From a virus: a DNA stretch of 64,000 bases. Location of the stretch: the IMG/VR virus record IMGVR_UViG_3300047160_027173, positions 66,240-130,239 of that record; one strand, 5' to 3'. The notes below the pieces were generated by a model. That model searched no databases and was not told where the DNA came from. It saw nothing but the letters and a program-made list of their open reading frames with translations. Positions 14,859-60,928 of the stretch are shown here, one piece after another (within the stretch, counting starts at the first letter, position 1; each line of letters begins with the position of its first letter). The translations under genes and the position numbers were made by a program.

Positions 14859-17356
14859 TGTTGGGGCAGGTCGCCGTCCGAGTAGTGCTCGGGCTGCGCT
14901 TCGGGCTTGTCCTTGGGCAGGCCACCTGGATGCTTGGCGCTGGTCGGGCGGCCAGTCGGGCTCGGGACGACACCGGAGCGCATGGCCTGCCAGCTGCTGT
15001 GACCGTCGGCGTGGGCTACCTTCCTCTTGCCGCCCTCACGGGCTCCGCTGGGGCTGGTGTCCTTCTGGCTGCCGTCGGGGAGGATGACGTTGTGCCTGCC
15101 GGTCTTGCCGGCCTCGGTGGCGGCCTTCTCCAGCTCCGAGCCGGGCTTGATGCCCTGCTTGGTCGGATCCAGGTCGGTGCCGTCGTGCAGCCGAATCCAC
15201 TGATGGCTCTCGCCCTTTGGGGTCTCGCCAACGACGGCCTCATGGGGAATGCGGTGGTGACGAAGGGTATCGCTGAGCAGCTCGGCGGCATCGTCACAGA
15301 AAAGGAACTCGCCACGACCGATGTGCCCGGCAATCTCACCCTCGTGCGCACCGATAAGGTCGCTCATTTCCTGGGGAGACTTCGCACCGCGGAGCTTCTT
15401 GGCGATGTGCCCGGGGATGTGAGCTAGCCTGAGACCGCGGGGCTTCGACTCAGCCTTCTCGACCATGTCGGGCTCGGCCGCGGCCAGCTTCTGCGGCAGC
15501 TGGACGTCGAGCAGGCGACCGGCCATGTCGGCGGCGCCAGCCGGGTGGCTCTGGTGCGGCGTCACGAGGAGTTCGGTCTGGGCACCGGAGTTGCGGCCAA
15601 ACCCAACCGAATGACTGGGGTCGAGCAGGTCGAACGAGGTGCGGACACTCTTAGTCGGCACCCAGCTGATGTACGGGCGCATGCCCTTGCCAATGGGGCT
15701 GTCGCCCTTCGGATAGAGCTTGTGAGAGTAGCTGGCGAGCGCCTGGTCCGGAACGCGCTTCATCCCCAGCACGCCCTTGTCGTCCAGGTACCGGGCCAGT
15801 GGCACGTGGGGCTCGCCGTTGATCATCTTCGACTTGGGCAACAGCGCCTTCTGGACCTGCAGATAGTGCTGATGGGCCTCATCGACGAGGTGGGAGTTCT
15901 TCACCAGCGAGGACGCCAGTTCGGCCACGTTCGGGATCTCGTGCTTGCTCGCGGCCAGACCGGCGGCGTGCTTGAGTCCGGCCATGAACCTCTGGTCCGC
16001 GTGCTGCGGATCGCTGTTGTACGAGGCCATGTTCTCCATGCGATGGTGGAGGTAACGGAGCAGCTGGGCCTTCGGCGTGTGCGCGTTCTTCTTGTAGCTG
16101 TTGTGGAGGTCCTTCAGGTCGTGGACTGCCTTGCCGGCCCGATGACCTTCCACAGCCAGCTGGAAGGCCAGTTCATCTTTTGGGCTTGGAGGGCCCTCGC
16201 TCTTGGCGAGGCCAGCCTCGGCGAGCAGTCCCTGGATGGCCTTTGAATCAAGGCCCTCCGCCTCCAGACGCTTGACGGTGTTCGCCATGGCGATGGCGGC
16301 CTGCTCGGGACGGTCCTGCTTGAACTTCGCGATGGCGCGAAGGGTATTCTTCGCGTGCGCGAGGTCCTCTTCGGGGGTCGTCGGGCGGGTACCGTGCTCC
16401 AGCGTGTCCGTCTCGTCAGGCGGAGTGCTGTTGCGGTTGTGGTCGGTGGCGATGAAGCGGCCCTGCTCGTCGCGGGGATGAGTCTTGGGGTCGAAGATGT
16501 CGGCCTTCTGCAGGCCCTTGCTCATGCCCTCGACCTCGGCGGGCTCGCCTTCCTCGGGGTCCTGGGGGGCGGCCCAGAGCGTGCGGCCCATGGCGATCAT
16601 CGTCTGGGCCATCTGATTGACGGCCTCGGCAATCTCCGGGTTCTGCTGCTGGAGCAGGGCCAGGGTCTGGGGGTTGCCCTTGAGCTGCTGGAGGATGGCG
16701 GCGATCTTCATCTTCAGGGCGTCGTTGGCGGCGTCCTGAGCGTGGGCCTCGGCGTCGGCCTTCTGCTTGTCGGCGGCGGCGTGGAAGTCCTTGAGGAAGT
16801 CAGCGGGCTGCTTCTCTTCCTTGGCGCCTTCCTCACCGTGGCCGCCTTCCATGTGCTGCATGAGCTGCTGCATGTGGGGGTCGTCGACGGTGCCCTGGAT
16901 GGCCTCTGGAGTCTCCTCGGCGCGGGCCAGGTACTCGTGGCCGAGCTTCTCCTGCTCGTCCTGCTGGAGCTGGAGGTTCTGGATGGTGTTCTCGACGTGG
17001 GGGCCGTAGGTGACGATGCGGTCTTTCCCTTCGAGTTTGGCCACGAGCAGGGCCTTCTGGGCCTCGCTGAGGCGCATGCCCAAGCCGACGCTGGCGCTGG
17101 CGCCCACCAGGGCGTGGTACTGCTGGCGGAGGGTGGGGACCTCGCCGATGCGGCTGGCGTCGACCTGGACGACGACCTCGTCGCCGCCGGCACTGACGAC
17201 CTGGCCACCGACACCCAGGGCCCACTTGGTCCAGAGGTCGTTGCCGTCGGTGATGAGCTTGCTCAGGCGGCGGACCTCGGCCACGTCATCGGCGAGGCTG
17301 GCCCGACCGACCTGGGACCCGATGCTGTCGCCGTCGATGCTGACGAAGAGATCCAT
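14855..17356 (-). CDS. Polyvalent virion protein: mCpol-like nucleotidyltransferase, ART-like and papain/transglutaminase-like modules
   Basis: Start MDLFVSIDGDSIG (ATG 17356); SAGGDEV...SVGLG...AKLEGKDR; R..S..ExL ART-like; C..H-W..DPT triad. Confidence 0.65.
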   Translation of the reverse strand: MDLFVSIDGDSIGSQVGRASLADDVAEVRRLSKLITDGNDLWTKWALGVGGQVVSAGGDEVVVQVDASRIGEVPTLRQQYHALVGASASVGLGMRLSEAQKALLVAKLEGKDRIVTYGPHVENTIQNLQLQQDEQEKLGHEYLARAEETPEAIQGTVDDPHMQQLMQHMEGGHGEEGAKEEKQPADFLKDFHAAADKQKADAEAHAQDAANDALKMKIAAILQQLKGNPQTLALLQQQNPEIAEAVNQMAQTMIAMGRTLWAAPQDPEEGEPAEVEGMSKGLQKADIFDPKTHPRDEQGRFIATDHNRNSTPPDETDTLEHGTRPTTPEEDLAHAKNTLRAIAKFKQDRPEQAAIAMANTVKRLEAEGLDSKAIQGLLAEAGLAKSEGPPSPKDELAFQLAVEGHRAGKAVHDLKDLHNSYKKNAHTPKAQLLRYLHHRMENMASYNSDPQHADQRFMAGLKHAAGLAASKHEIPNVAELASSLVKNSHLVDEAHQHYLQVQKALLPKSKMINGEPHVPLARYLDDKGVLGMKRVPDQALASYSHKLYPKGDSPIGKGMRPYISWVPTKSVRTSFDLLDPSHSVGFGRNSGAQTELLVTPHQSHPAGAADMAGRLLDVQLPQKLAAAEPDMVEKAESKPRGLRLAHIPGHIAKKLRGAKSPQEMSDLIGAHEGEIAGHIGRGEFLFCDDAAELLSDTLRHHRIPHEAVVGETPKGESHQWIRLHDGTDLDPTKQGIKPGSELEKAATEAGKTGRHNVILPDGSQKDTSPSGAREGGKRKVAHADGHSSWQAMRSGVVPSPTGRPTSAKHPGGLPKDKPEAQPEHYSDGDLPQQ

Positions 17357-17520
17357 GCACGGGCCTAGATTGCCGGATAGAGGAGGTTGCTGGCCGGAAG
17401 TCGAGGGCAGAGGTGGTGACTGGGTTGCCGTCCTAAAAGTGGGTCCAATGAGACCCCTCTCCGGGGCGAGCGGCGCCGGGCTTAAACTGAAGCGGCCACC
17501 TCTGCCTACATCTTCGGTGC

Positions 17521-17550
17521 TTGACTCCCGCCCCCGTCCCATGAGATAGT
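17521..17550 (+). promoter_or_regulatory. Sigma70-type early promoter, leaderless
   Basis: TTGACT-N18-GATAGT with an extended TG, 6 nt before ATG 17557. Confidence 0.6.
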
Positions 17551-24403: not shown

Positions 24404-24780
24404 GTCTGCAGGAAGTCCTCGACCAGCTCCGGGAGTTCAACTACCTCGGGGCCCGGATTGAGATCGAGCGCCCACTGGCCAAGGACTACGACTCCAGCTG
24501 GAAGCGTCTGTTCCGCTACGGCGACCAAAACTGCCACATCGCCTTCAAGTACTGGGTGGTCATCGACGACGGCCGCGGTCAGACCTGCGAGCAGCAGGCC
24601 GTGATTCTGGAGGAGTTGATTCCCAGGGCCCATCGCCTGGGCGTGGACCGCCAGCTGCGGAAGATCGTCGACGACCTCCGCATCGAGCGTAAGATGCGAG
24701 CCTACTGGGATCTGACCGAGCGCTTCTCGCAGCTGGTCCTGCACTACACCGCAGACGACGCCTTCGAGAGCGAGTCTTAG
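24400..24780 (+). CDS. Hypothetical protein
   Basis: ATGA coupling, start MSLQEV. Confidence 0.55.
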   Translation: MSLQEVLDQLREFNYLGARIEIERPLAKDYDSSWKRLFRYGDQNCHIAFKYWVVIDDGRGQTCEQQAVILEELIPRAHRLGVDRQLRKIVDDLRIERKMRAYWDLTERFSQLVLHYTADDAFESES

Positions 24781-26051
24781 TCTACGCCAGTCGTGCCCTG
24801 GCCGTAGCTGCCGACGCCACTGTCGTAGTTGCCGGTGCCGTCCGAGCTGGCACGCTTCTGGGGGTGCTCGCTCTTCTTGACCGCGGATCCCACGCCGGGG
24901 CACGGGTGACGGCCAGCGCCGGGGGCCTGGTAGGTGTGCATGGGGAACTTCTCGCCCGGAGCCAGCTTGAAGTTGGCCTCGCAGTGCTCGCAGGTCTCGT
25001 ACTTGGCCTTGGGCTTCGGCTCTTCCTTCTGCACGTCGTGACTATGGGCGCCTTCACCGGCGTCAGGACGATTGTTGGCCGGAGCCTCGGGGGTCTGGGG
25101 CTTGGCCTGGTCCTGGCCGCTGAAGCCGTGGTCCATGGTCTCGACCTTGCGGACGCTAGGAACCGGGTAGCCCTGGGTGAGGAAGTGGCGGGCCAGGCCG
25201 TCGCTGACGTGGCCGAGGTCTTCGCTGTTGTCCAGGGCCCTGCCGCCGTGCTCCAGCAGGCCTTCCTGAACGACGGCCTGGGGAATCCGGAAGCGCTTGC
25301 TGAGGCCGTCGCTGACGGCACCGAAGTCACCGGCGTTGTCCAGAGCCCGGCCGCCGTGATTGTTGGCCAGGTGGTGGCGGATCTCCGCGGACCAGTTCTG
25401 GTAGGCGGGCGGCTTGCCACCCTTGAGGCTGGCGTACTTGGCACCGGTCCTCTGCATCTCGGCCATGATGGCCTTGGGGTCCTTGCTGGCGATACCGGCC
25501 ATGGTGTCGCCCATGGACTGGGGCTTCTGGAAGGGGCGGCTGGCGGCAGCGATACGGCTGACGTCGGCATCAGCGCCGAGGTCCTTGCCGGGAGCTACGC
25601 GCTCGCTGGGGAACCTGAGCAGGTCACCCTTGGCCAGCTCGGCCTTGGCGACGGCGTCCTGGTGGTCGTGGACGAGGAGGCCGTCACCCTTGTGGGCGCG
25701 GAACTTGTAGTGCTTCTGGGCGTTGGCGTCCAGGCGGCTGCTGACGGCGGAGTCGATGCCCGCCATGGGGTCCTTGCCAGCAGCGCGGGTGTGGAGATCG
25801 TACATGACGCCGTGCTTGTGGGCGGCCTCGTGGTCACCGACGGCCAGGGCGGCCTTCATGCCGGCGAAGTGGTGGGCGCGGGCGTCCTCGTGGTGGCCCT
25901 GGCGGTACTCGCGATAGGCGCGCTCCTCGGCGGCGCCACGCTCCAGACCGTCCCGGAACTCCTTGACGGCGGCGTTGTTCTCCAGGACCTGTCCGTCCTG
26001 AGCGTTGAGGAGCTTGCGGCCCTTCCAGAGATCGTTGTGCTTGTCAGCCAT
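24777..26051 (-). CDS. Putative head-internal protein with xxK[AS] motifs
   Basis: MADKHND...; VAKAELAKGD, VKKSE; HGGRALDN repeat twice. Confidence 0.6.
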   Translation of the reverse strand: MADKHNDLWKGRKLLNAQDGQVLENNAAVKEFRDGLERGAAEERAYREYRQGHHEDARAHHFAGMKAALAVGDHEAAHKHGVMYDLHTRAAGKDPMAGIDSAVSSRLDANAQKHYKFRAHKGDGLLVHDHQDAVAKAELAKGDLLRFPSERVAPGKDLGADADVSRIAAASRPFQKPQSMGDTMAGIASKDPKAIMAEMQRTGAKYASLKGGKPPAYQNWSAEIRHHLANNHGGRALDNAGDFGAVSDGLSKRFRIPQAVVQEGLLEHGGRALDNSEDLGHVSDGLARHFLTQGYPVPSVRKVETMDHGFSGQDQAKPQTPEAPANNRPDAGEGAHSHDVQKEEPKPKAKYETCEHCEANFKLAPGEKFPMHTYQAPGAGRHPCPGVGSAVKKSEHPQKRASSDGTGNYDSGVGSYGQGTTGVD

Positions 26052-27333
26052 GGAGGGCATCCCTCTTAAAGTTCAAGATTAGAGCCCGGGCCTCGTCGGG
26101 GTCGATGTCGTCGGCGAAGTCCAGGACGAAGCCGTCCCGGTAGGCACTGGTGGTGATGGACTTGGCCAGACTGGCGAAGCACATGCAGCCCCGGAACCTC
26201 GTGCCCTGGAACTGACGGCCGCCGCAGCGCTTGCACGCCACCTGGGCCTCGGACTTGTTCAGACCCAGGCTCGGCAGGCGACGCTTCTGCTGCTTCTTGG
26301 ACTGGAAGCCCATCGGGCCACGGGGGCCTTCCGGAGCCTGAGGCGGGGCTGGCTGGCCCGGGCCTTCCTGGCCACCGGCCTTGTCCATGCTCTGCTCGCC
26401 CTTGCCGAAGGGACGGTTGGGCTGGGCCCAGAGAGCTGAGCCCTCGTCGGTCTGGATGCTGCCGGGGTTGATCTTCTTGCCCAGGACTCGCTCGGCGTGC
26501 TGGTACATGGCCGTGGCCAGACCCCGCCTGCGGTGGTCCTCGTCGACGACGACGTAGCCCGGCTTGAGGACGTTGCCGGTGTTGGCGCCGTGGATGAGCT
26601 TGGCGATGCCGACCTGCTGGCCGTTGGGGCCGTGCGCGGTGACGGTCAGGCTGCTCAGGCCGGGAGCGTCGTGCTGCTCATGACTGATGCGGTAGCCAGC
26701 GCCTGGGTCCAGCTCCTTCTTCGAGAGGTCCTTGCGGAAGCTGCCGCCCCACATGGTCTGTTGCCGGTCGGCGTGGTCGGCAGCGTCACGGAGTCGACCG
26801 AAACCTGCCTTGACCACGCCCCCTGACTTGGCGACGACCGCGTAGCCATCTTCAGACTTCTCCACGCGGTAGTGGCCGTGCTCAGACACGACCTGGGGGC
26901 CCAGCCGTGACTTGCGAAGCTCCTGGACCTCGATCTGGGTCCGGAGCAGAGAATCGACGTGCTTGCCGAGGACCGATACGACCTGGTCTCGGAGCCTGGC
27001 GTCGGCGGCCTGAACCTGCAGGCCGAGGGCCGTGGCCACGGTGGCCGCCATCTGGCTCAGGCTGCTGCCGTGGAAGTCCAGGAGGCCGTCGACGTCGGGT
27101 AGACTCACGGAGCCCGTGAAGGTGTCCTGCTCGGTCTTCTTGAAGACGAGGTAGCTGTTGTCGCAGCCCGGAATCGAGCCCTCGAACTGCTCCTGCATGG
27201 ACAGCCATCCCAGGATAGCCCTGGGTAGAAGGATGGGCTCCAGGAACTCGTCCCGCCGGCAAGCCTTGCGGAGCGCATCTGCGCCCTGCTGCCCGAGGGT
27301 GATCGTCAAGAAGTCTGGAGCCTGGTGCGCCAT
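26044..27333 (-). CDS. Virion polyprotein with GNAT module
   Basis: VDEDHRRRGLATAMY (GNAT motif A); CAATCT 8 nt upstream. Confidence 0.7.
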   Translation of the reverse strand: MAHQAPDFLTITLGQQGADALRKACRRDEFLEPILLPRAILGWLSMQEQFEGSIPGCDNSYLVFKKTEQDTFTGSVSLPDVDGLLDFHGSSLSQMAATVATALGLQVQAADARLRDQVVSVLGKHVDSLLRTQIEVQELRKSRLGPQVVSEHGHYRVEKSEDGYAVVAKSGGVVKAGFGRLRDAADHADRQQTMWGGSFRKDLSKKELDPGAGYRISHEQHDAPGLSSLTVTAHGPNGQQVGIAKLIHGANTGNVLKPGYVVVDEDHRRRGLATAMYQHAERVLGKKINPGSIQTDEGSALWAQPNRPFGKGEQSMDKAGGQEGPGQPAPPQAPEGPRGPMGFQSKKQQKRRLPSLGLNKSEAQVACKRCGGRQFQGTRFRGCMCFASLAKSITTSAYRDGFVLDFADDIDPDEARALILNFKRDALHG

Positions 27334-29804: not shown

Positions 29805-32800
29805 CTACTGAGGATGAGCTTCCTTCCAAGCACGAAATCCACTGAGGCCTACCCAGAACTTGTTGACCTCGCGGCTGAGGTTCTCCACCCTGCCGACCTG
29901 AGACTTCAGCCATCCCAAGCGCTTCAGGCTGGGCTCAGCGCGAATGCCATACTTGCTCAAGACATCCACGAGAACCTTCGGGTCCAAGCTCTCCACCCAC
30001 TGCTGAAGGTCGTCATCCTCAGCCAGGTTCGCAGTCGGCATGACAGCCAGCCGCTCCTGGTTGGTCATCGTCTTCCAGCGCTTACCCGCGGTGGCGCGCA
30101 AGTAGAAGGGGATGAAGGAGCTGGCGTCGTGACTGGGATCAAAGGCATCACCGGCGAAGGTGCTGCCGTGGTCGATGAGCTTGACAGGGAAGCCATCTTC
30201 CTCGGTGCCCACCATCAGGTTATTGCCGTGGCGGTCTGGCGACCCCAAGACCATATCAAGCACCGCCCACTTGTAGAGCGTCCCCTCCGCCTTGAGCTTC
30301 TCGATGATGTTCTGGAGCTGGTGCGGGTTCTGGTCGCGGAGCTTCTCCATGTTCATCCAGTCCAGGGGCAGCAGCTCCATGACGGCGGTCTCCTGGCGGT
30401 CGACCTCCAGGACGTGGGTAACGGGCAGCCACTGGCCCAGACCCCAGGCGTCGGCGACCTCGTAGAAGGCACCTTCGCGGCTGCTCTGGCTGGCGGTCTC
30501 CTCGCGGACGCCAGCGGCGGGGCTGAGGTTGCCTGAGCCGGGCTTGAGGAGCCACTGCTTGCCGTCCTCGACGCGGACGATCTGCATGCCGCCGGTGTGC
30601 TTGCCCTTGAACTGAACCGGGCGGTCGTCGCCGCGGTCCATGGCTTCGACCAGCTCGTCGGCCAGGGGCTGGCTCCGGGGATCACGGGCGCTGACGGTGT
30701 GGTCACCCTCGCCCTTGTTCAGGCCTTCCTGGTTCTGGATCTCCACCAGGGCCCAGATTGCCTTCAGCGTGTCTGGGGTCGGCTCCAGACCGGCAGCCTT
30801 CAGGGCGGCCTCGGCTGGCTCCAGGTCCAGCGCCAGGGCCTGGCGGAAACGGTTCTCGTCGATGAGCTTGCCGCTGAGGAAGGCGGCGGCGCGGCACAGG
30901 GGACCGTGGATGGTGCTGGCACCGCCCTGGGCGGCAGCTACGGCCTGCATCTGGTCCTCGAACTTGTGCATGGGCTGCTCGGCCTTCATGGCGTAGTTGT
31001 AGTGGCCGCGGGCGTCGTCGAAGTCGGCCTCATCGTGGAACCTGGGGTCGACGTTGGTCTCGGCGCTGTACTTCATGCCGTGCTTGCGGGCCAGTGCCTC
31101 GTGGACGCCGTGGGCGGCCGTGCTGTGGTCCTCGCCGACGACGGTACGGGCGCCGTGCTTGTGATAGGCGTGCGTCATCAGGGCCTCGTACATGGCCAGG
31201 CCCAGGCCCTTGCGGCGGTGGTCATTGGCGAGGCGGGCGAACTCGATGCCGAGAAAAGGACCTACGCCACCACTGGGAAGGTTGCCGCTGTTCGTATGAC
31301 CCTCGACCTTGCCGACGGGTTCGTCGTACTGCTGAATGGGAGCACGTCCCTTGAAGAGGCGAACCTTGTGGTCGGCATAGTACCAACCGTCGCTCTCTGG
31401 GTGAGCCCTGGTGCTGAGCACCATCCGGTAGTTCTTCCTCTCCGCGGCGGGCAGCAGGTGGCTGTAGTCGTGGTGAACCCAGGCGACGTTGCCGGGGACC
31501 ATCGTCTTCCGACCCGGCTTGAGGTCGGCGATGGCCATCTTCTCCAGGTCCTCGGACTTCTGGACGTCCTCGTGTGGGACGAACATGGCCTGAGGGTTTG
31601 CCAACAAAATGTTGCGGTTGTCTGCTCGGTAGACCTTGCGGGCCTTCACCGGCACTACCTGAAAACCCTTCGTGGCCAGGTCGGCCAGGAGCTTCTTCCC
31701 GAACCACTGTTCGGCGTGCTCCGGCTTCTCGAATCCGAAGCGGACGTTGGTATCCGGGAAAACCGGCTCCATGACGCCACCGACTTCAGAGAACGCCTGC
31801 TGGGGGACTGGTCTCGATTGGCGGTCGCCGAATCTACGAGGTTTGCGGAAGCTGTTCGGCAGCACATCGGCCTCGTAGGGTCCTCTGCCCCTGGAGTCCT
31901 GAACCCTGTAGACCACCATCGGCTTCTCGGCGCTGTCGTGGACAAGAGCCATCTTCTCCAGGCTCTCGGACTTCCCGAACTGAGTGTTCCCAGCCCAAAG
32001 GGCTTCACCCTCGGGAGTGCGGTTACTACTCGGGACCATCTTGCGTCCGGTAACCTTCTCCGCGTGGGCATACATTGCGCTGGCCACGCCACGGCGCCGA
32101 TGCTCGGGCTCCACGCGCACGACCTCAGCGGTCATGAGACCACCAGGACTGTGATAGACACTCGCGCGACCAATCTGTCGTCCGCCGTGATGAGCGGTGA
32201 CGATGGTGCTAGGACGGTGACCCATCCACTCGGCGTTCTCGTCTCCGGGGAAGGACTCGTGGGCAAAGGTGTAGCCAGCGTCCGGGTCGAGAACAGTCTT
32301 GTCGAGGTCCTCGGACTTCTGGTAGGGCAGGTGGTAGTCGGCCCAGCTCCGCTGACGCTTGCTCTCGGCGAGAGCGTCGGGTACCTGGCCGCCCTTGCTG
32401 CGCTTGCCCGGCAGGGGCTTGTCGAGGTCGTAGCCGCCCTCGTCGAAGGGATAGCCCTGAGGGTCGACGATGCCGAAGCCGCCCAGGTGGCGCTCAAGCT
32501 CGGGCTCGATGCTGGGGCGCTTCTCAATCTTGCCGTCGACGTAGTCCATGAAGTCCAGGGCGCGCTGCTTCTTCCCGGCGTCCTTCATGCGCTGGATGCT
32601 CTGCATGCCCAGCTCACGCTGGTTGGGGATGGGCTGGTCCCAGTCGTGGACCTCGTCGGGGTTGTTCTCGTCGCCCTCGACCTTGTGGTACTCGTTCGAA
32701 GTCGGGTCCCAGGTCTTGTTGTAGACGCCCTTGATGCTGGCCGGGTCCCAGGTGATGTAGTGGCGGGCTCCCTGCGTGCCCTTCATGCCACTGAAGCGGT

Positions 32801-35800
32801 CGGCGTCGTGGACGATGCCGTCGTGGCCCATCTCCCTGGCCACCTCAGCGGCGAACTCGCCACCCATCAGGCGTCCCTCGTCATCGGTGACGTCGTTCAT
32901 GTTGACGCTGTCACGGAGGGTATCCATGACGTGGGAGGCGTGGGCTCCGCCACTCGCCATGTCATCGCCATGGTTGCTGTGGACGTCGTCCCAGATCTTT
33001 TTGCCGTCGGCGCCGTACATGGGCGCCACGCGGTGGATGGCATCGTGGAGGTCGACGCCGTTGCCGGTCTCGTTGCCGTCGTCGTCGACGTCAATTGAGA
33101 ACTGAGTACCACCTTCCTTGGTCAGCATCAGCGGGTTCTTCATCCGCAGATAGGCGGGAATCACCCGGGGCGCGGGACCGACGAGCTTCTGCTTGACCTG
33201 GCGCTTCAGCTCCCTGGCCTCTTGGGGAGACTCGGCCACGTGCTCGCTACGCTCGACCTCCTGCTGTACGCGGTTCTTGAGGTCCTGGCCGGTCCTGGTC
33301 GCGTAGTTCGCGTTGACGTCCTCGGCGCTGTCCGTGAAGTAGTGCCCGCCACCCCAGAAGTTCTCAGGGTTGGCCCTGCTCGCACCGAAGCGGGTGAAGT
33401 CGTGCGTGGTGCCGTGGTAGACACGGAGAGGGGCTCCGGTCTTGGGGTGGGTAATCTTGCTCTCACCAAACCAGTTCTTGAACTCGGGGCCACCGACTCC
33501 CATCGGGCTCGGGCCCTGCTGCCGGGGCTTGGGGGTGCGGACGGCCTTGGGACTGAAGGCCTTCTGCATGGCCTCCTTGACCTCGGAGATTTCCTCCCGC
33601 GGGTCCAGCCACTTCTCGCTGACCCGGCGGGAGTGAGCCATGAGCTGCTTGTAGGCCCGCTTCAGGGTGTTGTCGTGAATGCGGGCCTCGGTCTCGGTGT
33701 GGTCGGCGTGGTAGCGCTCGCGCTCCTTGGCCGAGTTCATGTAGTTGACCAGGGAAGCCAGCTTCTCTTCATCAAAGGCGCTGGGTGTGTTCTGCTTGTA
33801 CCAGTCACCGGCCTGGTGATGGTGGAAGCTCTCGATGGCGTGCAGGTGGCTCTTGGGCATGGCCTGCAGCAGGCGGCTGGCTAGGAGGGTACGGGCCTTG
33901 CGACCATACTTGCGCTCGACCAGGGAGAAGACTCCGTGCAGGTCCTCGTGCTGCAAGTTGCTACGGACCTCGTCAGGCGTCACCCGGGCCAGCTTCGGGC
34001 CCATGACCCCGGCCTGGTAGCTGTGCCCGGTGCGGATGCTCCAGCCGTGCATGGGCGGCGCACCGAGCTTGGTGGCGGCGTGCATCTGGCTGGCGTTGCT
34101 CTTGGCACGGTCGGCACGGGACTCAGCATCGAAGGCGACACCGTACACGGGATTGGCGTTGACCTGGTAACGCTCGTCGGCAGCGAACAGACGCCTGGCG
34201 CTGTTGTAGAGCTGCTTGGGGTCGTCGATGATCTCCGACTCGCGGCGGTTGGTGATCTTCAGCCGGGGGAAGCTCATCGGCGGACTGACCTTGCCCAGCT
34301 CCTCGCCTTCGTGCTTCTGCTGGAGAACAAACATCGGGTGATGCTCGGGGTTCTCGATGACAGAGGTCGGCTTCAGCTCCGGCGACTTGCCCGCGTGGGC
34401 CCAGTGCGGGCTCTTGAAGTTGCCGCGCTCGCCGAGCTGACCCTGATAGCCGGGGGTGGCGTGGAGCTTCGTCCAGCGCCTGGTGGCGTCGTCGCTGACT
34501 TCGCCGTCGCTGACCAGACCCCGGTGGTAGCGGAGCATGTTCTCGTAGAGGGCGTGGCCGTAGCCGTGACCACGGAGACCGGGGCTGGTGGCGCTGAAGT
34601 GGACCTGGGCGGCCTCGCCCTTGAGGGGAACCTTGACGCCGTGCTCTTCCTTCAGACGGTTGATGTCCTTGTGGGTGCCGACCGTGGCCGAGCTGACCAT
34701 GCCGCTCTGGTCGAAGGGGCTGGGCTTGGTGCTGATGACGTGCATCATCGGCGTGTAGCCCTCCTCCTCGAAGTGGGGCATGTGGTAGACGTGATGGTAG
34801 AGGCCGAGCTTGGGCTGGAAGGTCTCGATCTTCGTGAAGCGCGTGCCCGGGTGCGGGAGAGCAGGGAAGGCGCCGCCTGCGCTGGTGTTCACCCAGGCCT
34901 TGAGCATGTCCTCCTGGCTGGACTTCTGCAGGCCGAGGTCGCCGGACTTGAGGCTGGCAGCGGCCGAGCGCATCTTCTGGACGGCGCCACGAACCAGGGC
35001 CTGGAAGGCGTACTGGCGCTCGGGCGTGCGGAGCTTGAGGTGCTGGTGGACGGTCTTCCGGAACCAGGGGTCGCCGACGTAGTTCTGCGCGTAGCAGATC
35101 TTCTCCTCGGGGAGCACGTCCGGCGGGTAGTGGCCGTTGATGGACGGGTGGCTCATGATGGCGTTCAGAGCCGCGTGTTCCTTGTCGTTGAGCTGGGCGT
35201 GCAGGTGGCCGAGGACGTTCCTCCGGCCGAGGCCGCCGAACTCCTGGGCCAGACGCTTGAAGACGCCGTGCTGGGTCTCGTGACTGCGGGTGCCATGCCA
35301 GCCGCGGTGGTCGACGTTGTAGACGGCGCCGTAGCCCTTGTACTCGGGAGCGATGGGCTCGGGGCTGTTGGGCATCGTCGTGTAGCCCCAGGTGTAGCCA
35401 GCGTTGGTGTCCTTGTGAACCTGACCGCGGACGCGCAGGCGCTGGCTCATCTGCTCGGCCGTGCTCGGCATGGCCTCGACAGGGCTGGCCTGGCCGAGGC
35501 CGGGGAAGTGGATGTAGCCGATGCCGGTGCTGACGGCCTTCATCAGCTCCTCGCGGAGAGCGGGGCCAGTCAGCTGGTCGCCGACGATGTAGCTCTTCTG
35601 GGCCTCGGTGATGCGGGGATGGCCAGCGACGTGCTCGCGAAGCTCGGGGTCGTGGAGGACGGCGTCGAGGTGCTTCTCGGTGATGCCCGGGTGGCGGAGA
35701 GCGGTCTGCCTGGTGGCGAGGTCCGGGTGTTTGATGGCCTCGTGGAGAAGACCATCGGTCATGTCATCGTGGAGGACGGCCATCTCCCGGACGCGGGGGT

Positions 35801-35915
35801 CCTCGTCTGCCATGGCCTGACGGAGCTGGTCGACGCTGAGGCCGTTCCGCTTCAGGGCCACCATCCTCTTGAGGGGATCGTCGCTGTCAAGCCACGTGCT
35901 GTGATCGGGGGTCAT
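29805..35915 (-). CDS. 2036-aa polyvalent virion protein: HEAT-like, 2x zincin, 3x GNAT, ART-like, PI3K/PI4K/HipA-like kinase
   Basis: HETQH and HEDLH; three RxxG.[GA].A[LM]Y motifs; FKNWFG...VYHGT...G.YFT; LLKP...DRHGNN...LIDHG. Confidence 0.8.
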   Translation of the reverse strand: MTPDHSTWLDSDDPLKRMVALKRNGLSVDQLRQAMADEDPRVREMAVLHDDMTDGLLHEAIKHPDLATRQTALRHPGITEKHLDAVLHDPELREHVAGHPRITEAQKSYIVGDQLTGPALREELMKAVSTGIGYIHFPGLGQASPVEAMPSTAEQMSQRLRVRGQVHKDTNAGYTWGYTTMPNSPEPIAPEYKGYGAVYNVDHRGWHGTRSHETQHGVFKRLAQEFGGLGRRNVLGHLHAQLNDKEHAALNAIMSHPSINGHYPPDVLPEEKICYAQNYVGDPWFRKTVHQHLKLRTPERQYAFQALVRGAVQKMRSAAASLKSGDLGLQKSSQEDMLKAWVNTSAGGAFPALPHPGTRFTKIETFQPKLGLYHHVYHMPHFEEEGYTPMMHVISTKPSPFDQSGMVSSATVGTHKDINRLKEEHGVKVPLKGEAAQVHFSATSPGLRGHGYGHALYENMLRYHRGLVSDGEVSDDATRRWTKLHATPGYQGQLGERGNFKSPHWAHAGKSPELKPTSVIENPEHHPMFVLQQKHEGEELGKVSPPMSFPRLKITNRRESEIIDDPKQLYNSARRLFAADERYQVNANPVYGVAFDAESRADRAKSNASQMHAATKLGAPPMHGWSIRTGHSYQAGVMGPKLARVTPDEVRSNLQHEDLHGVFSLVERKYGRKARTLLASRLLQAMPKSHLHAIESFHHHQAGDWYKQNTPSAFDEEKLASLVNYMNSAKERERYHADHTETEARIHDNTLKRAYKQLMAHSRRVSEKWLDPREEISEVKEAMQKAFSPKAVRTPKPRQQGPSPMGVGGPEFKNWFGESKITHPKTGAPLRVYHGTTHDFTRFGASRANPENFWGGGHYFTDSAEDVNANYATRTGQDLKNRVQQEVERSEHVAESPQEARELKRQVKQKLVGPAPRVIPAYLRMKNPLMLTKEGGTQFSIDVDDDGNETGNGVDLHDAIHRVAPMYGADGKKIWDDVHSNHGDDMASGGAHASHVMDTLRDSVNMNDVTDDEGRLMGGEFAAEVAREMGHDGIVHDADRFSGMKGTQGARHYITWDPASIKGVYNKTWDPTSNEYHKVEGDENNPDEVHDWDQPIPNQRELGMQSIQRMKDAGKKQRALDFMDYVDGKIEKRPSIEPELERHLGGFGIVDPQGYPFDEGGYDLDKPLPGKRSKGGQVPDALAESKRQRSWADYHLPYQKSEDLDKTVLDPDAGYTFAHESFPGDENAEWMGHRPSTIVTAHHGGRQIGRASVYHSPGGLMTAEVVRVEPEHRRRGVASAMYAHAEKVTGRKMVPSSNRTPEGEALWAGNTQFGKSESLEKMALVHDSAEKPMVVYRVQDSRGRGPYEADVLPNSFRKPRRFGDRQSRPVPQQAFSEVGGVMEPVFPDTNVRFGFEKPEHAEQWFGKKLLADLATKGFQVVPVKARKVYRADNRNILLANPQAMFVPHEDVQKSEDLEKMAIADLKPGRKTMVPGNVAWVHHDYSHLLPAAERKNYRMVLSTRAHPESDGWYYADHKVRLFKGRAPIQQYDEPVGKVEGHTNSGNLPSGGVGPFLGIEFARLANDHRRKGLGLAMYEALMTHAYHKHGARTVVGEDHSTAAHGVHEALARKHGMKYSAETNVDPRFHDEADFDDARGHYNYAMKAEQPMHKFEDQMQAVAAAQGGASTIHGPLCRAAAFLSGKLIDENRFRQALALDLEPAEAALKAAGLEPTPDTLKAIWALVEIQNQEGLNKGEGDHTVSARDPRSQPLADELVEAMDRGDDRPVQFKGKHTGGMQIVRVEDGKQWLLKPGSGNLSPAAGVREETASQSSREGAFYEVADAWGLGQWLPVTHVLEVDRQETAVMELLPLDWMNMEKLRDQNPHQLQNIIEKLKAEGTLYKWAVLDMVLGSPDRHGNNLMVGTEEDGFPVKLIDHGSTFAGDAFDPSHDASSFIPFYLRATAGKRWKTMTNQERLAVMPTANLAEDDDLQQWVESLDPKVLVDVLSKYGIRAEPSLKRLGWLKSQVGRVENLSREVNKFWVGLSGFRAWKEAHPQ

Positions 35916-36887: not shown

Positions 36888-38360
36888 TTACGCCTTGGGT
36901 GTAACTTCGAGGGCGTGCAGCTGCTTGTGCCCCAGGGCCCGGGCTGCCTCCAGGCGGTGGTTGCCGTCCAGTAGCCTCCAGCCCTCGCCGGAGCGCTGGA
37001 CGACGACAGGCGGGAGCTTCTCGCCGGCACCGAGCATGCGCCGGTAGAGCTGGAGCCGGGGGCGGTTGACGGCCATGTTCGTGCCCAGGCCGGGCTGCTC
37101 GACGTCGATCATCGTCGGCTTGAGCCGGGTGTGCTCGCCACCGGCGAAGGCGTCGGCGATGCCCTGGACGAACTTCTTGTTCCAGGTCCGGCGCTCGGGG
37201 GTTCCGGCGACGGGGATGCGGAGCCCGTCCTGGCTGCGCCAGTGCTGGGCGGCCTCGGCCTTGACGAGGGGGTTCATGGCGCGCTCGATGATGATCTTAG
37301 CCCGGTGACTGGGCCTGCCGCCAGGAGTCTGAAAGCCGCACCCACGGCCCTGCTCGTATGGCGGCTGCTCCTGGAACTGGTCCGCGGTGGGGTCGATGAT
37401 GTGCCCGCTGGCCTTGTGCCGGAGGAACCAGTGCGTGCTGCCCTCGTGGTGGACGTAGTGAGGGACGTAGGGGCCGCTGGTGCCTCCCAGTAGGTGGTAG
37501 ATGGCCTCGGTGGCGGCGCTGCAGTGGCCGTGGAGCCGGTTCGGGTGGCCCTGGTACTCGGGGCGGCGAAGCTCGTCGCTGAGGCTGTCCTGGATGCGCC
37601 GGACCAGCTCGGCCTGGTGAGGGTCGAAGGGGGCAGGCTCCAGGCTCTTTTTCATGCTGGCCATGGGAGCGCCGTGGAGGTTGGCTCCGAAGGTGCTGGC
37701 GTGCTCCAGGGCACCCTCGTGGGTGGCGGCGACGAGGTGGCTCTTGGGCTGCTTGTTCTCGTCCAGCCAGGTGCAGCGCCAGTGCTGGCGGTTGTGCGGG
37801 TCCCGGCCGACGATGGCGAAGCCCTGCAGGCCCAGGTTCCAGGCGCTGCCCGAGGTGGTGGTGGCAAGCTCGGCGATACGGGCCTTCCTCCGGGTCCGCT
37901 TCTCGGCCTCGTTGGCGAAGAAGTCCGGGTCCGCCTTCCTGAAGTGGGTGTCGATGGTCTTGCCGTGGGGGACGCCGAGCAGCTCCAGGACGACGTTCGG
38001 ACAGTCGCGGAGGTCGTCACGAATCTGCGCCGGAATCTGGCCCGGGTCTACCCAGCGGAACTCGACGAACTCGCCGTCGGGGTCCTGGCTGGCGTCGGGC
38101 TCACCGGCTACGAGACACTTGAAGGCCCAGACGCTGATGCCGGGGTCGGAGCCACGGGCCGAGCCCAGGTACTCCATGTCGATGCTGATGAGGCCGGTCT
38201 CTTCCTGCAACTCGCGCTTGGCGGCGTCGAGGGGGTTCTCACCCTCGTTGAAGTGTCCGCCCGGCAGGCACCAGCCGCGGCCGTCACCGCGGAGACCGAA
38301 GAGGAGCTGGCCGTCGTCGTTGAAGGCGGCCACAGCGGCCACTCGGTCGAAGAGCTTCAC
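36888..38360 (-). CDS. Polyprotein: NUDIX + unknown + papain-like + ParB-like modules
   Basis: Nudix box PGGHFNEGENPLDAAKRELQEETG; GHCSAATEA...HWFL...DPTADQF; PPVVV...LLDGNHRLEAA. Confidence 0.8.
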   Translation of the reverse strand: MKLFDRVAAVAAFNDDGQLLFGLRGDGRGWCLPGGHFNEGENPLDAAKRELQEETGLISIDMEYLGSARGSDPGISVWAFKCLVAGEPDASQDPDGEFVEFRWVDPGQIPAQIRDDLRDCPNVVLELLGVPHGKTIDTHFRKADPDFFANEAEKRTRRKARIAELATTTSGSAWNLGLQGFAIVGRDPHNRQHWRCTWLDENKQPKSHLVAATHEGALEHASTFGANLHGAPMASMKKSLEPAPFDPHQAELVRRIQDSLSDELRRPEYQGHPNRLHGHCSAATEAIYHLLGGTSGPYVPHYVHHEGSTHWFLRHKASGHIIDPTADQFQEQPPYEQGRGCGFQTPGGRPSHRAKIIIERAMNPLVKAEAAQHWRSQDGLRIPVAGTPERRTWNKKFVQGIADAFAGGEHTRLKPTMIDVEQPGLGTNMAVNRPRLQLYRRMLGAGEKLPPVVVQRSGEGWRLLDGNHRLEAARALGHKQLHALEVTPKA

Positions 38361-58509: not shown

Positions 58510-58609
58510 GGCCGGGGTATAACGGCCAGGAAGGTCTAGCGCAGCCCGAGCAAGCACAGCAGAGCACGGTTAAGACAGAGAGGTGGGACTGGTCAGGCTC
58601 GTACCCCAC

Positions 58610-60900: not shown

Positions 60901-60928
60901 TGTGTTTCTCCTAGAAAGGAAAGGTTCC

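What the first reader, a model, noticed from the sequence alone, without database searches (positions are those of the whole stretch)
29805..35915. Virion effector polyprotein punctuated by the capsid-maturation motif [LMVF]xK|[ASG]
Seen: recognisable modules of the 2036-aa protein are bounded by Lys motifs. In order: HEAT-like | ELMKA (~35540) | zincin | LQKS..MLKA (~34900) | GNAT | LGKV (~34290) | zincin | MQKA (~33560) | ART-like | YHKV | unknown | YQKSEDLDKT (~32300) | GNAT | FGKSESLEKM (~31960) | unknown | VQKSEDLEKM (~31550) | GNAT | AMKA..MHKF | unknown | LNKG (~30715) | PI3K/HipA-like kinase. The same motif is at the MCP N-terminus (ALLK|ALEAG) and throughout the scaffold. Established: Herelleviridae-type MCPs are matured by cleavage after an N-terminal Lys (K|S), and polyvalent proteins with ART/GNAT/peptidase domains are known from phages. 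Inference: these are head-packaged polyproteins that the prohead protease cuts into separate enzymes for injection. The same applies to the ORFs at 2452-6108, 14855-17356, 24777-26051, 26044-27333 and 36888-38360.
Basis: partly seen in the sequence, partly recalled or inferred. Interest (0 to 1): 0.85.

Follow-up and report, generated by a model that had tools for sequence, protein, structure and literature searches.

The report
Phage multi-enzyme protein with cleavage-like linkers
A soil phage related to Myxococcus phage Mx1 encodes a 2036-residue chain of about eleven enzyme modules joined by conserved lysine linkers that look like the site where its capsid protein is trimmed, so the chain may be cut into separate enzymes inside the phage head, but this is not yet shown.

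Summary
It is a polyvalent protein: HEAT-like, two HExxH modules, three to four GNATs, ART-PolyVal and a PI4K-like kinase. It lies in the late structural region of an incomplete Mx1-like myxophage contig.

The stated motif [LMVF]xK[ASG] is not enriched in this protein alone (9 seen, 5.6 expected). Only 7 of the 15 listed lysines fit it.

Several results do favour functional boundary sites:
- Related MCPs and the exit of every related prohead-protease domain carry a hydrophobic-x-K followed by ALEAG-like residues.
- Boundary lysines are conserved in orthologues far more than other lysines.
- Shuffling and indel edges fall on them.
- AlphaFold puts 4 of 7 N-terminal-half sites in low-confidence linkers.

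Cleavage by an S78-like prohead protease is plausible (about 0.5) but untested. The protease gene is not on this contig. Intact packaging, or self-processing by the HExxH modules, remain open. Iyer et al. (2017) already proposed processing of polyvalent proteins. This is a new variant of a known kind.

The parts
29805..35915 (-). P0001, a 2036-aa polyvalent protein (whole ORF including stop)
35538..35915 (-). Module 1, aa 1-126, HEAT-like repeats. Ends at ELMK126|A.
   Evidence: HEAT_2 E 3e-4, below cut-off. K126 invariant in 5 of 5 orthologues.
34899..35537 (-). Module 2, aa 127-339, first HExxH (HETQHGVF) helical module. Ends at LQK331|S..MLK339|A.
   Evidence: Motif read. No Pfam hit. Helical domain of model residues about 101-246. 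Homology block with Mx1 starts at aa 331.
34290..34898 (-). Module 3, aa 340-542, weak GNAT. Ends at LGK542|V.
   Evidence: Acetyltransf_1 E 0.011. K542 invariant in 5 of 5 orthologues and inside a pLDDT<50 segment.
33561..34289 (-). Module 4, aa 543-785, second HExxH (HEDLHGVF) helical module. Ends at MQK785|A.
   Evidence: Motif read. VIA Z 6.3, rmsd 4.4, 163 aligned to anthrax lethal factor residues 64-263, which is weak. K785 inside a pLDDT<50 segment.
32682..33560 (-). Module 5, aa 786-1078, ADP-ribosyltransferase (ART-PolyVal). Ends at YHK1078|V.
   Evidence: Pfam 4e-13. VIA Z 10.7 to cyanophage A4 pre-ejectosome chain 9k3a_B and Z 8.6 to tankyrase-2. Homology blocks end at aa 1079-1081.
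32316..32681 (-). Module 6, aa 1079-1200, unknown. Ends at LPYQK1200|S.
   Evidence: No Pfam hit. Conserved in 5 orthologues, K in 4 of 5 and R in 1. The indel in P0003 starts right after K1200.
32298..32318 (-). Linker 1, K1200-SEDLD-K1206. Also a DNA-level repeat copy.
   Evidence: Repeat family D1 copy 32280-32319.
31971..32297 (-). Module 7, aa 1207-1315, GNAT. Ends at FGK1315|S.
   Evidence: Acetyltransf_1 4e-7. A paralogue in ORF 26044-27333 ends PFGK|GEQSMDK|A.
31953..31973 (-). Linker 2, K1315-SESLE-K1321
   Evidence: Repeat D1 copy 31935-31974.
31557..31952 (-). Module 8, aa 1322-1453, unknown mobile module (PHROG 1106-like)
   Evidence: phrog_1106, E 8.8e-9, at aa 1330-1450. The same module sits inside the protease polyprotein of relative L009 at aa 345-490, with block edges 1319-1450.
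31539..31559 (-). Linker 3, K1453-SEDLE-K1459
   Evidence: Repeat D1 copy 31521-31560. Homology blocks start at 1451-1461.
30963..31538 (-). Module 9, aa 1460-1651, GNAT. Ends YNYAMK1644|AEQPMHK1651|F.
   Evidence: Acetyltransf_1 1e-5. The end Y.Y.(L/M/I)K|[ASGD]E is kept in the related GNAT copies listed.
30714..30962 (-). Module 10a, aa 1652-1734, five-helix pre-domain of the kinase module. Ends at LNK1734|GE.
   Evidence: Helices at model 459-539. K kept in 24 of 24 aligned kinase-module proteins. pLDDT dips to 59 in the block holding K1734.
29808..30713 (-). Module 10b, aa 1735-2036, PI3K/PI4K-like kinase core
   Evidence: VIA Z 18.3, rmsd 3.3, 253 aligned to PI4K II-alpha 4pla_A, from model residue 553 (P0001 aa 1742) to 847. 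HipT 12.3 and HipA 11.3. Pfam PI3_PI4_kinase 21.7 bits, below the 27.1 cut-off.
59527..60906 (-). Major capsid protein, with candidate maturation site LLK11|A12LEAG
   Evidence: phrog_752 2.7e-39. 58% identical to the Mx1 MCP. N-termini of relatives compared.
60929..61852 (-). Scaffold candidate, by position and composition only
   Evidence: Homologue of the Mx1 gene just upstream of its MCP. 5 motif sites against 1.7 expected, and 3 against 0.29 with an acidic P2'. No family hit.
63458..64000 (-). GGDEF/nucleotide-cyclase ORF running off the contig end. In 4 relatives this module is the C-terminus of the prohead-protease polyprotein.
   Evidence: GGDEF 3.6e-11. Fusions seen in L002, L004, L005, L007.
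36888..38360 (-). NUDIX plus two further modules. All 3 strict motif sites (K142, K238, K367) lie 2-14 aa from shuffling edges against Mx1.
   Evidence: NUDIX 1.9e-20. Sites. Block edges 7-149, 236-372, 353-490 computed.
26044..27333 (-). 429-aa protein with a GNAT module. Strongest motif excess in the genome.
   Evidence: 9 sites against 1.7 expected, p<0.001. Its Mx1 homologue has 8 against 1.9. GNAT 23.9 bits.
24777..26060 (-). 427-aa protein of unknown function with motif sites
   Evidence: 4 against 2.0 expected. With an acidic P2', 3 against 0.24, p 0.002.
14855..17542 (-). mCpol-containing multi-module protein with motif excess
   Evidence: mCpol 4.4e-14. 9 against 3.6 expected, p 0.006.
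2452..6108 (-). 1218-aa Lys-rich protein upstream of the tail sheath gene, with motif excess
   Evidence: 15 against 7.8 expected, p 0.012. Strict motif 14 against 6.0.

Best explanation
P0001 is a phage polyvalent protein: a string of about eleven independent enzyme modules. In order they are HEAT-like, HExxH, GNAT, HExxH, ART, unknown, GNAT, unknown, GNAT, a helical pre-domain and a PI4K-like kinase. It is made late by an Mx1-like myxophage.

The most likely mechanism has three steps:
- It is loaded into the prohead together with similar proteins.
- The phage's S78-like prohead protease cuts after a lysine preceded by a hydrophobic residue at P3, and usually followed by a small then an acidic residue.
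- The freed enzymes leave with the DNA and modify host proteins by ADP-ribosylation, acetylation and phosphorylation.

Shown here: the module composition, the conservation of the boundary lysines, and the coincidence of the lysines with shuffling edges and (for 4 of 7 N-terminal-half sites) predicted linkers. Also shown: the same site form at the MCP N-terminus and behind the protease domain of relatives, and a motif excess that is specific to this clade and to a group of late proteins.

Inferred, not shown: packaging, cleavage, which protease does it, which sites are used, and injection.
For: (1) Polyvalent architecture.

(2) Late structural context. The gene lies between the MCP and the tail sheath, co-oriented with both. 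Mx1 has the homologous modules at the same place.

(3) Site definition.
- 8 MCPs (7 relatives plus the window) have a variable 10-13 aa start, then L-x-K, then invariant A[LM]EAG.
- 7 of 7 related protease polyproteins carry hydrophobic-x-K|[AT] plus a copy of the MCP N-arm right after the roughly 200-aa protease domain.
- The protease N-domain is nearest to Peptidase_S78 clusters (score 0.96).

(4) Group enrichment. 56 against 25.4 expected (z 6.5), and 22 against 3.4 with an acidic P2' (z 9.9). The rest of the genome has 68 against 77.9. R, E and Q in place of K give no excess (z -1.1 to 0.3); D gives a smaller one (35 against 22.6, z 2.8). The reversed motif scores z 1.5, and shuffling within 30-residue windows still gives z 6.7.

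(5) Partial replication on 83 Mx1 CDS. The homologue of ORF 26044-27333 has 8 against 1.9. The scaffold homologue has 5 against 1.8.

(6) Clade specificity for the motif plus acid. 16 against 3.9 in 6 orthologues and 25 against 6.5 in 19 kinase-module proteins. In 147 unrelated ART polyvalent proteins it is 157 against 160.2.

(7) Boundary lysines are conserved.
- 6 of 7 against 11 of 67 other lysines (p 4e-4, 3 orthologues).
- 5 of 7 against 10 of 67 (p 0.003, 5 orthologues).
- The K1734 equivalent is kept in 24 of 24 proteins.

(8) Shuffling and indel edges fall on aa 331, 1079-1081, 1318-1319, 1450-1461 and 1646-1676. Orthologue P0003 lacks exactly the stretch from K1200 to about K1651.

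(9) AlphaFold. K542, K785, K1078 and K1200 lie in pLDDT<50 segments and K339 lies one residue before one. There is a dip at K1734, 6-8 residues before the kinase core.

(10) The same kinase module is fused to the prohead protease in L006, L003 and L009, so there it must enter proheads.

(11) The ART module's best structural match is a capsid-internal ejection protein of cyanophage A4 (Z 10.7).
Against: - No protein-level data exist for this phage or for Mx1. The Mx1 genome announcement, read whole, has no proteomics.
- In P0001 itself the stated motif is not enriched (9 against 5.6, p 0.12; broader form 10 against 7.1, p 0.17). The same holds for its Mx1 counterpart (9 against 6.8).
- Half of the boundary sites need a relaxed P1' (V, T, M, F, N, D, H).
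- Motif sites K688 and K1522 lie within the HExxH-2 and GNAT-3 module segments.
- K126 and K331 are not in pLDDT<50 segments.
- The model of aa 1190-1650 was too poor to test the three KSEDLEK linkers.
- Much of the kinase-set enrichment is one conserved site.
- The GNAT junction motifs could be the first and last strands of the domain.
- The three linkers are also DNA repeats, so recombination could keep them alike.
- The protease gene is missing from this contig. Its family rests on weak sequence evidence: no Pfam hit, no PDB sequence hit, and phrog_1028 at E 0.002.
- Lys specificity of S78 proteases is recalled only and was not found in the library.
- Known precedents (P1 DarB, N4 vRNAP) are packaged uncut.
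Confidence: 0.5

Rival explanations
1. The protein is packaged and injected intact, like P1 DarB or N4 vRNAP. On this reading the conserved hydrophobic-x-K-small-acidic linkers are not cleavage sites. They would be domain caps, flexible joints, or recombination joints that let modules move as cassettes.
For: - The three KSEDLEK linkers are the top DNA direct-repeat family in the gene (73-78% identity over 40 nt).
- Modules are shuffled between relatives and inserted or deleted exactly at linkers.
- The motif count in P0001 alone is at chance.
- DarB, N4 vRNAP, ArdC and TraC1 are transferred uncut (Iyer 2017 passages).
Against: - Recombination does not explain why the same site form stands at the MCP N-terminus, behind the protease domain and in the scaffold candidate.
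- It does not explain why only the forward order of residues is enriched.
- It does not explain why a lone lysine is kept in 24 of 24 kinase modules inside an otherwise variable loop.
Confidence: 0.25
2. The chain is cut, but by its own two HExxH (zincin-like) modules, in the head or after injection. This is what Iyer et al. proposed for MPTase domains of polyvalent proteins.
For: - Two HExxHGVF motifs are conserved in 3 of 3 aligned orthologues.
- The model is in print (Iyer 2017 passages).
- There is a weak zincin-like fold match (Z 6.3).
Against: - The most motif-rich proteins (26044-27333, 2452-6108, 14855-17542, the scaffold candidate) and the MCP have no HExxH module of their own.
- The site follows the prohead-protease domain in 7 of 7 relatives.
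- There is no Pfam support for a peptidase here.
Confidence: 0.12
3. The protein is not a virion component. It would be a late cytoplasmic multi-enzyme that acts in the producing cell, and the lysine motifs would have no role in assembly.
For: No direct evidence of packaging. Thymidylate synthase, dNMP kinase and a lipid desaturase also sit in this late region, so position alone is weak.
Against: - Homologous kinase and GGDEF modules are fused to the prohead protease in relatives.
- The ART module is most like a capsid-internal protein.
- The motif is shared with the MCP and the scaffold candidate.
Confidence: 0.1

Closest known systems
Polyvalent proteins of phages and conjugative elements (Iyer, Burroughs, Anand, de Souza, Aravind 2017, PMC5512222; abstract and passages read)
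   Same: - Many effector domains sit in one chain (ART-PolyVal, GNAT, kinase, zincin-like).
- The gene is phage-encoded and lies near structural genes.
- The authors predict packaging and processing by peptidase domains. They say assemblin-like peptidase domains in such proteins probably process them during assembly.
   Different: - Here the candidate processing enzyme is a separate prohead-protease polyprotein with the protease at the N-terminus. The paper says assemblin-like domains are always C-terminal.
- A concrete site form shared with the MCP can be named here.
- The kinase is PI3K/PI4K/HipA-like, not the truncated Ser/Thr/Tyr-type kinase the paper describes.
- The paper's supplementary files were not seen.
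Phage P1 Dar system (DarB about 2000 aa in the head; DarA N-terminus cut by prohead protease Pro; PMC12810830 and PMC9024508, passages read)
   Same: Large multi-domain anti-host proteins are carried in the head and ejected with the DNA. The prohead protease trims both a cargo-associated protein and the MCP.
   Different: In P1 only an N-terminal piece of DarA is reported as removed. DarB uses an N-terminal localisation signal and is not described as cut into modules.
Ejection proteins of phiKZ-like phages processed by the prohead protease (SPN3US gp245; PMC10052503, passages read)
   Same: Many internal head proteins are cut at a short motif shared with the MCP, and propeptides hold several motif copies.
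   Different: There, 13 of 14 sites remove N-terminal propeptides. The paper reports the gp54 cut after a glutamate (E-124); that the motif as a whole ends in Glu is recalled. The protease is of the T4 gp21 type (recalled). No chain of enzymes is released.
Cyanophage A4 pre-ejectosome protein, PDB 9k3a chain B (PMC12002296, passages read)
   Same: It is the best structural match of the ART module (Z 10.7, rmsd 3.8, 172 aligned, chain residues 1418-1601). It is a very large protein that physically sits inside a capsid.
   Different: It belongs to a podovirus core protein. 'ADP-ribosyl' and 'protease' have no occurrences in the main text, and the one 'cleav' hit is a reference title. Sequence identity is 13%.
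Polyproteins of eukaryotic viruses (for example Gag-Pro-Pol); recalled, no call
   Same: A protease encoded in the same chain as other enzymes cuts them apart inside the assembling particle.
   Different: No homology. This is a tailed-phage HK97-type system, and it is unproven here.

Membership tests
Polyvalent proteins (Iyer et al. 2017) | 2 to 15 distinct effector domains in one polypeptide | tested here: met
   At least 6 domains have family or fold support: 3 GNAT, ART-PolyVal, a kinase, and HEAT-like (weak).
Polyvalent proteins (Iyer et al. 2017) | Encoded by a phage or conjugative element | tested here: met
   Tail sheath, MCP and tail fibre genes are in the window. The nearest relative is Myxococcus phage Mx1.
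Polyvalent proteins (Iyer et al. 2017) | Signature domain ART-PolyVal (PF18760) | tested here: met
   42.3 bits against a 31.2 cut-off. 50.9 bits on the segment alone.
Polyvalent proteins (Iyer et al. 2017) | Zincin-like MPTase domain | tested here: inconclusive
   Two HExxH motifs, no Pfam hit, VIA Z 6.3 to anthrax lethal factor residues 64-263.
Polyvalent proteins (Iyer et al. 2017) | Delivered with the DNA (packaged in the capsid) | not testable with these tools
   Needs virion proteomics.
Substrates of a prohead protease (as T4 internal proteins, phiKZ/SPN3US ejection proteins, P1 DarA) | Carries the same short site as the MCP or scaffold of the same phage | tested here: met
   The hydrophobic-x-K form is at the MCP N-terminus, in the scaffold candidate and at the module junctions. 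In P0001 alone the count is not above chance.
Substrates of a prohead protease (as T4 internal proteins, phiKZ/SPN3US ejection proteins, P1 DarA) | New N-termini at those sites in virions | not testable with these tools
   No proteomic data. The Mx1 announcement has none.
Substrates of a prohead protease (as T4 internal proteins, phiKZ/SPN3US ejection proteins, P1 DarA) | A prohead protease is encoded by the phage | tested here: inconclusive
   Not on this incomplete contig. Present upstream of the cyclase, scaffold and MCP genes in 7 of 7 relatives with that region.
Peptidase S78 (HK97-family prohead protease), for the relatives' protease domain | Match to the family model | tested here: inconclusive
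   No Pfam hit at E<=1 for 3 of 3 proteins. phrog_1028 'head maturation protease' E 0.002. 25 of 30 nearest named Atlas clusters carry PF04586, best score 0.96. No PDB sequence hit.
Peptidase S78 (HK97-family prohead protease), for the relatives' protease domain | Conserved His and Ser | tested here: met
   H44 and S127 are invariant in 6 of 6 sequences. That they are the catalytic pair is inferred.
PI3K/PI4K-like (and HipA-like) kinases | Kinase fold | tested here: met
   Z 18.3, rmsd 3.3, 253 aligned to PI4K II-alpha. Z 12.3 to HipT and 11.3 to HipA.
PI3K/PI4K-like (and HipA-like) kinases | Pfam PF00454 above the gathering score | tested here: not met
   19.1 and 21.7 bits against 27.1. Precomputed PF00454 is listed for 14 of the 19 related proteins. 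DRHGNN and IDHG are in the sequence; their reading as catalytic and Mg loops is recalled.
GNAT acetyltransferases | Pfam PF00583 above the gathering score | tested here: met
   56.6 bits against 20.7 for the whole protein. Segments score 30.7 and 26.1 bits. The segment 340-542 scores 16.4, below the cut-off.

The most novel reading that the evidence does not exclude
Mx1-like myxophages may use a true polyprotein strategy.
- A few giant late precursors, including the prohead protease's own chain, would carry the whole set of injected host-modifying enzymes.
- The protease chain drags a kinase or a GGDEF cyclase behind a copy of the capsid protein's N-arm. That copy may act as both the targeting signal and the self-cleavage site.
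- An S78-type protease would dice the precursors into single enzymes at hydrophobic-x-Lys linkers inside the prohead.
- The linkers would double as exchange points for swapping effector cassettes between phages.
Probability: 0.35. Interest if true: 0.8.

Novelty: new variant of a known kind. Interest (0 to 1): 0.6.

Why it matters
If the linkers are cut, this would be a tailed phage that makes many separate injected enzymes from one precursor. That is how many animal and plant viruses work, and it has not been shown for phage effector proteins.

It would give a simple rule for this clade (hydrophobic-x-Lys, then small, then acidic) for reading where each injected enzyme begins and ends. It would also give a testable answer to a question left open by Iyer et al. 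2017: whether, where and by what polyvalent proteins are processed.

The protease chain with an MCP N-arm copy followed by cargo suggests a way to load foreign proteins into capsids. Mx1 grows on Myxococcus xanthus DK1050, so the prediction can be tested directly.

Tried and rejected
- Megablast of the gene against 50,697 phage records found no match.
- Chance as the explanation for the group enrichment was rejected by global and local shuffles and by residue-order controls.
- Composition or helix periodicity as the explanation was rejected. The reversed motif scores z 1.5 and six other orders score between -1.1 and 1.2. Only small-hydrophobic-x-K is also raised (z 3.9), which suggests a P4 preference.
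- I tested whether the motif is a general property of polyvalent proteins. It is not: 157 against 160.2 in 147 proteins.
- An HMM of the MCP N-arm was searched in all proteins of the contig and of the relatives. It was found only in MCPs and protease polyproteins, not in P0001 or other cargo candidates. So P0001 has no recognisable copy of that putative targeting element.
- Protease family: Pfam found nothing and the PDB sequence profile found nothing at E<=10.
- Foldseek of the 1101-residue model against the PDB gave no match at E<=0.001. The VIA second look then gave ranges.
- Other parts of that model (HEAT-like, HExxH-1, GNAT-1, module 6) were barely tested. Nothing can be said about their folds.
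- The model of aa 1190-1650 was below pLDDT 50 almost throughout. The structural test of the three KSEDLEK linkers therefore failed.
- PF26820, listed as precomputed for P0001, is not in the local Pfam, so I do not know what it is.
- Literature on Lys-specific cleavage by SPO1/Twort-like or HK97-type proteases: four searches and passages of the Felix O1 paper gave no statement. That premise is unverified here.
- A search for papers holding both 'polyvalent protein' and 'prohead protease' found 2. I read passages of Iyer 2017 only; the other, a Thermus virus preprint, I saw in the search listing only.
- Supplements of all papers were closed. The Iyer 2017 architecture files and the SPN3US tables might bear on how new this is.
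I did not check it. They could be alternative proteases.
- The gene calls used for statistics are my own GC3-based heuristic: 133 ORFs, 100 of them 100 aa or longer.

Full report
WHAT THE WINDOW IS

The window is the second half (66240-130239) of a single 130,239-base virus contig. It carries:
- a tail sheath (phrog_279, 2.5e-25);
- a major capsid protein at 59527-60906 (-) (phrog_752, 2.7e-39);
- collagen-like and other tail-fibre genes.

The nearest named phage is Myxococcus phage Mx1 (MCP 58% identical over 98%). It is one of only 3 matching records among 50,697.

The contig is incomplete. It ends inside a GGDEF/cyclase ORF (63458-64000). tblastn with the Mx1 portal finds nothing. The Mx1 'putative prohead protease' matches only 32 residues, and these fall on the N-terminus of our MCP.

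THE OBSERVATION

ORF 29805-35915 (-) encodes 2036 residues.

Pfam on the whole protein gives:
- GNAT: 56.6 bits, 3 stretches;
- ART-PolyVal: 42.3 bits;
- PI3_PI4_kinase: 19.1 bits, below threshold.

On ten segments cut at the lysines, Pfam gives:
- HEAT_2 (3e-4);
- GNAT in 340-542 (0.011), 1207-1315 (4e-7) and 1460-1651 (1e-5);
- ART (4e-13);
- kinase (2e-4);
- nothing for the two HExxH segments or the two 'unknown' segments.

phrog_1106 covers aa 1330-1450. So the module map is largely right. The 'zincin' label rests on two HExxHGVF motifs and a weak fold match.

IS THE MOTIF MORE THAN CHANCE?

Not in this protein. [LMVF]xK[ASG] occurs 9 times against 5.6 expected (p 0.12). With I and Y allowed at P3 it is 10 against 7.1 (p 0.17). 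With an acidic residue added at P2' it is 4 against 0.96 (p 0.013).

For the group the excess is strong.
- They hold 56 sites against 25.4 expected (z 6.5).
- With an acidic P2' they hold 22 against 3.4 (z 9.9).
- All other proteins of the contig hold 68 against 77.9.
- R, E or Q in place of K gives no excess (z -1.1 to 0.3). D in place of K gives a smaller one (35 against 22.6, z 2.8).
- The reversed motif scores z 1.5.
- Six other residue orders score between -1.1 and 1.2.
- Shuffling within 30-residue windows leaves z 6.7.

The set had been chosen by eye, so I ranked all 100 proteins of 100 aa or more without prior choice. The top five were:
- 26044-27333: 9 against 1.7;
- 14855-17542: 9 against 3.6;
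- 2452-6108: 15 against 7.8;
- the scaffold candidate: 5 against 1.7.

On 83 annotated Mx1 CDS the result replicates in part. The homologue of 26044-27333 has 8 against 1.9 and the scaffold homologue 5 against 1.8. An unrelated 824-aa protein also scores (12 against 4.2). The 1479-aa counterpart of P0001 does not (9 against 6.8).

WHERE THE SITE FORM COMES FROM

Eight related loci were fetched.
- Eight MCPs (7 relatives plus the window) begin with a variable 10-13 residues. These end in L-x-K, followed by invariant A[LM]EAG.[YF]NA.PS.
- Every related protease gene (7 of 7) encodes an 895-1437-aa chain.
- Right after its conserved N-terminal domain of about 200 aa comes hydrophobic-x-K, then [AT], then a copy of the MCP N-arm (..AP..L.GG[AS]ALQ.E).
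- An HMM of this element finds only MCPs and protease chains.
- The protease N-domain has invariant His and Ser.
- Its nearest Atlas clusters are Peptidase_S78 (0.96).
- It has no Pfam hit, no PDB sequence hit, and only E 0.002 to a PHROG protease family.
- The chains continue into a PI3K-like kinase (L006) or a GGDEF cyclase (L002, L005; L004 and L007 by BLAST).

DO THE LYSINES MARK MODULE BOUNDARIES?

Homology blocks between P0001 and the shuffled proteins of relatives begin or end at aa 331, 809-810, 1079-1081, 1318-1319, 1450-1461, 1646-1676 and about 2022.

Mx1 spreads the same modules differently. Its 1479-aa protein is a mosaic of pieces of P0001, ORF 36888-38360 and ORF 36217-36834. 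Its kinase is a separate gene.

In ORF 36888-38360, all three strict sites (K142, K238, K367) lie 2 to 14 residues from those block edges.

Three orthologues found in the large protein libraries were aligned (two more were added).
- P0003 (67% identical) lacks exactly the stretch between LPYQK1200 and MHK1651.
- P0004 lacks the ART module.

Junction sequences recur across the clade:
- GNAT ends: Y.Y.(L/M/I)K|[ASGD]E;
- bipartite linkers: K|[SA]E.[LF].K|[MA];
- ART ends: (Y/F).K|(V/D/S).

One relative has five tandem GNATs. They are separated by a 26-residue spacer (GELAPDHDEEALLLCPPGCHDQKIEK) that follows one such lysine and ends in another.

The boundary lysines are conserved far more than other lysines.
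- With 3 orthologues: 6 of 7 testable sites against 11 of 67 (p 4e-4).
- With 5 orthologues: 5 of 7 against 10 of 67 (p 0.003). One K-to-R change occurs at K1200.
- The lysine before the kinase core is present in 24 of 24 aligned proteins. By my reading of the alignment, 23 have a hydrophobic P3 and 20 an acidic P2'.

STRUCTURE

The model of aa 100-1200 has mean pLDDT 71.
- K542, K785, K1078 and K1200 lie in segments below pLDDT 50. K1200 is at the model's end.
- K339 lies one residue before such a segment.
- K126 and K331 lie in blocks averaging 51 and 66.
- The unlisted motif site K688 lies in a confident domain.
- 285 of 1101 residues are below 50.

The model of aa 1190-2036 is uninformative for its first 460 residues. 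It is confident for the kinase module.
- Five helices come first.
- Then comes a dip to 59 in the block holding K1734.
- Then comes a core that matches PI4K II-alpha from P0001 aa 1742 (Z 18.3).

The ART module is most like chain B of the cyanophage A4 pre-ejectosome (Z 10.7). This ranks above tankyrase-2 (8.6) and MbcT (7.2).

CLADE SPECIFICITY

The motif with an acidic P2' is enriched in the 6 orthologues (16 against 3.9). It is also enriched in 19 kinase-module proteins (25 against 6.5), largely through the one conserved site. It is not enriched in 147 ART-containing polyvalent proteins from other elements (157 against 160.2).

READING

The protein is a polyvalent protein in the sense of Iyer et al. 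2017.

Packaging is likely (about 0.7) for four reasons:
- its place in the late structural region;
- the fusion of its kinase module to the prohead protease in relatives;
- the structural match to a capsid-internal protein;
- the P1 DarB precedent.

Cleavage at the lysine linkers by the prohead protease is the best single mechanism (about 0.5). It alone explains the shared site form in the MCP, the protease chain, the scaffold candidate and the cargo proteins.

It remains an inference. Three rivals stand:
- Intact packaging, with linkers kept for recombination. The three KSEDLEK linkers are also the top DNA repeat family of the gene.
- Self-processing by the HExxH modules.
- A role outside the virion.

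COMPARISON AND NOVELTY

- Iyer et al. already proposed that peptidase domains process polyvalent proteins. They said this includes assemblin-like ones, which they describe as always C-terminal.
- Prohead proteases are known to trim ejection proteins in SPN3US and its relatives and DarA in P1.

What is new here:
- a named, clade-specific site form shared with the MCP;
- bipartite linkers between unrelated modules;
- an N-terminal protease followed by an MCP N-arm copy and cargo.

A search for both 'polyvalent protein' and 'prohead protease' found only 2 papers. Supplements were closed.

LIMITS

- There are no protein data.
- The protease is missing from the contig.
- Alignments for several modules are shallow.
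- Gene calls are heuristic.
- The premise of Lys-specific cleavage in related phages is unverified.

Noticed in passing
L001:5273-8992 (Mx1), and L002-L006 and L009 protease genes: Every related prohead-protease gene encodes an 895-1437-aa chain. The protease domain is followed by a roughly 30-residue copy of the MCP N-terminal arm, then by cargo: a PI3K-like kinase or a GGDEF cyclase. This may be a capsid-targeting or self-release element.
   Followed up: partly
window 63458-64000 (-): A GGDEF/cyclase ORF runs off the contig end. In four relatives this module is the C-terminus of the protease chain, so the missing upstream DNA may be the protease gene itself.
   Followed up: partly
window 46916-47551 (-): The phage encodes a lipid desaturase (PF10520, 1.4e-39). 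By recall this is the family of Myxococcus CarF and the human plasmalogen desaturase. It is a possible host-lipid auxiliary gene.
   Followed up: no
L022 (G003:C1:3500-11500), minus strand, 1781-aa frame: The frame begins with a DGDRIG-type motif like that of the window's mCpol protein (14855-17542) and holds five tandem GNAT modules. The modules are separated by a 26-residue spacer with a CPPGC motif, flanked by lysine sites.
   Followed up: partly
window 36217-36834 (-): This 205-aa protein has a signal-peptide-like N-terminus. Its homologue in Mx1 has no such start and is embedded inside the 1479-aa polyvalent protein.
   Followed up: no
PDB 9k3a chain B residues 1418-1601: The cyanophage A4 pre-ejectosome protein has an ART-like domain that matches this ART-PolyVal module better than PARPs do (Z 10.7 against 8.6). 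The term 'ADP-ribosyl' has no occurrence in that paper's main text.
   Followed up: partly
window 31521-31560, 31935-31974, 32280-32319: The three KSEDLEK linkers are also the top DNA direct-repeat family of the gene (73-78% over 40 nt). They are possible joints for cassette exchange.
   Followed up: partly
window 57136-58557 (-): A collagen-repeat tail-fibre protein (Collagen 6.6e-29) lies between the MCP and the polyvalent genes.
   Followed up: no
P0001, precomputed Pfam list: The protein library lists PF26820.1 on P0001 and on two relatives. This family is absent from the local Pfam, so one module may already have a curated family that I could not read.
   Followed up: partly
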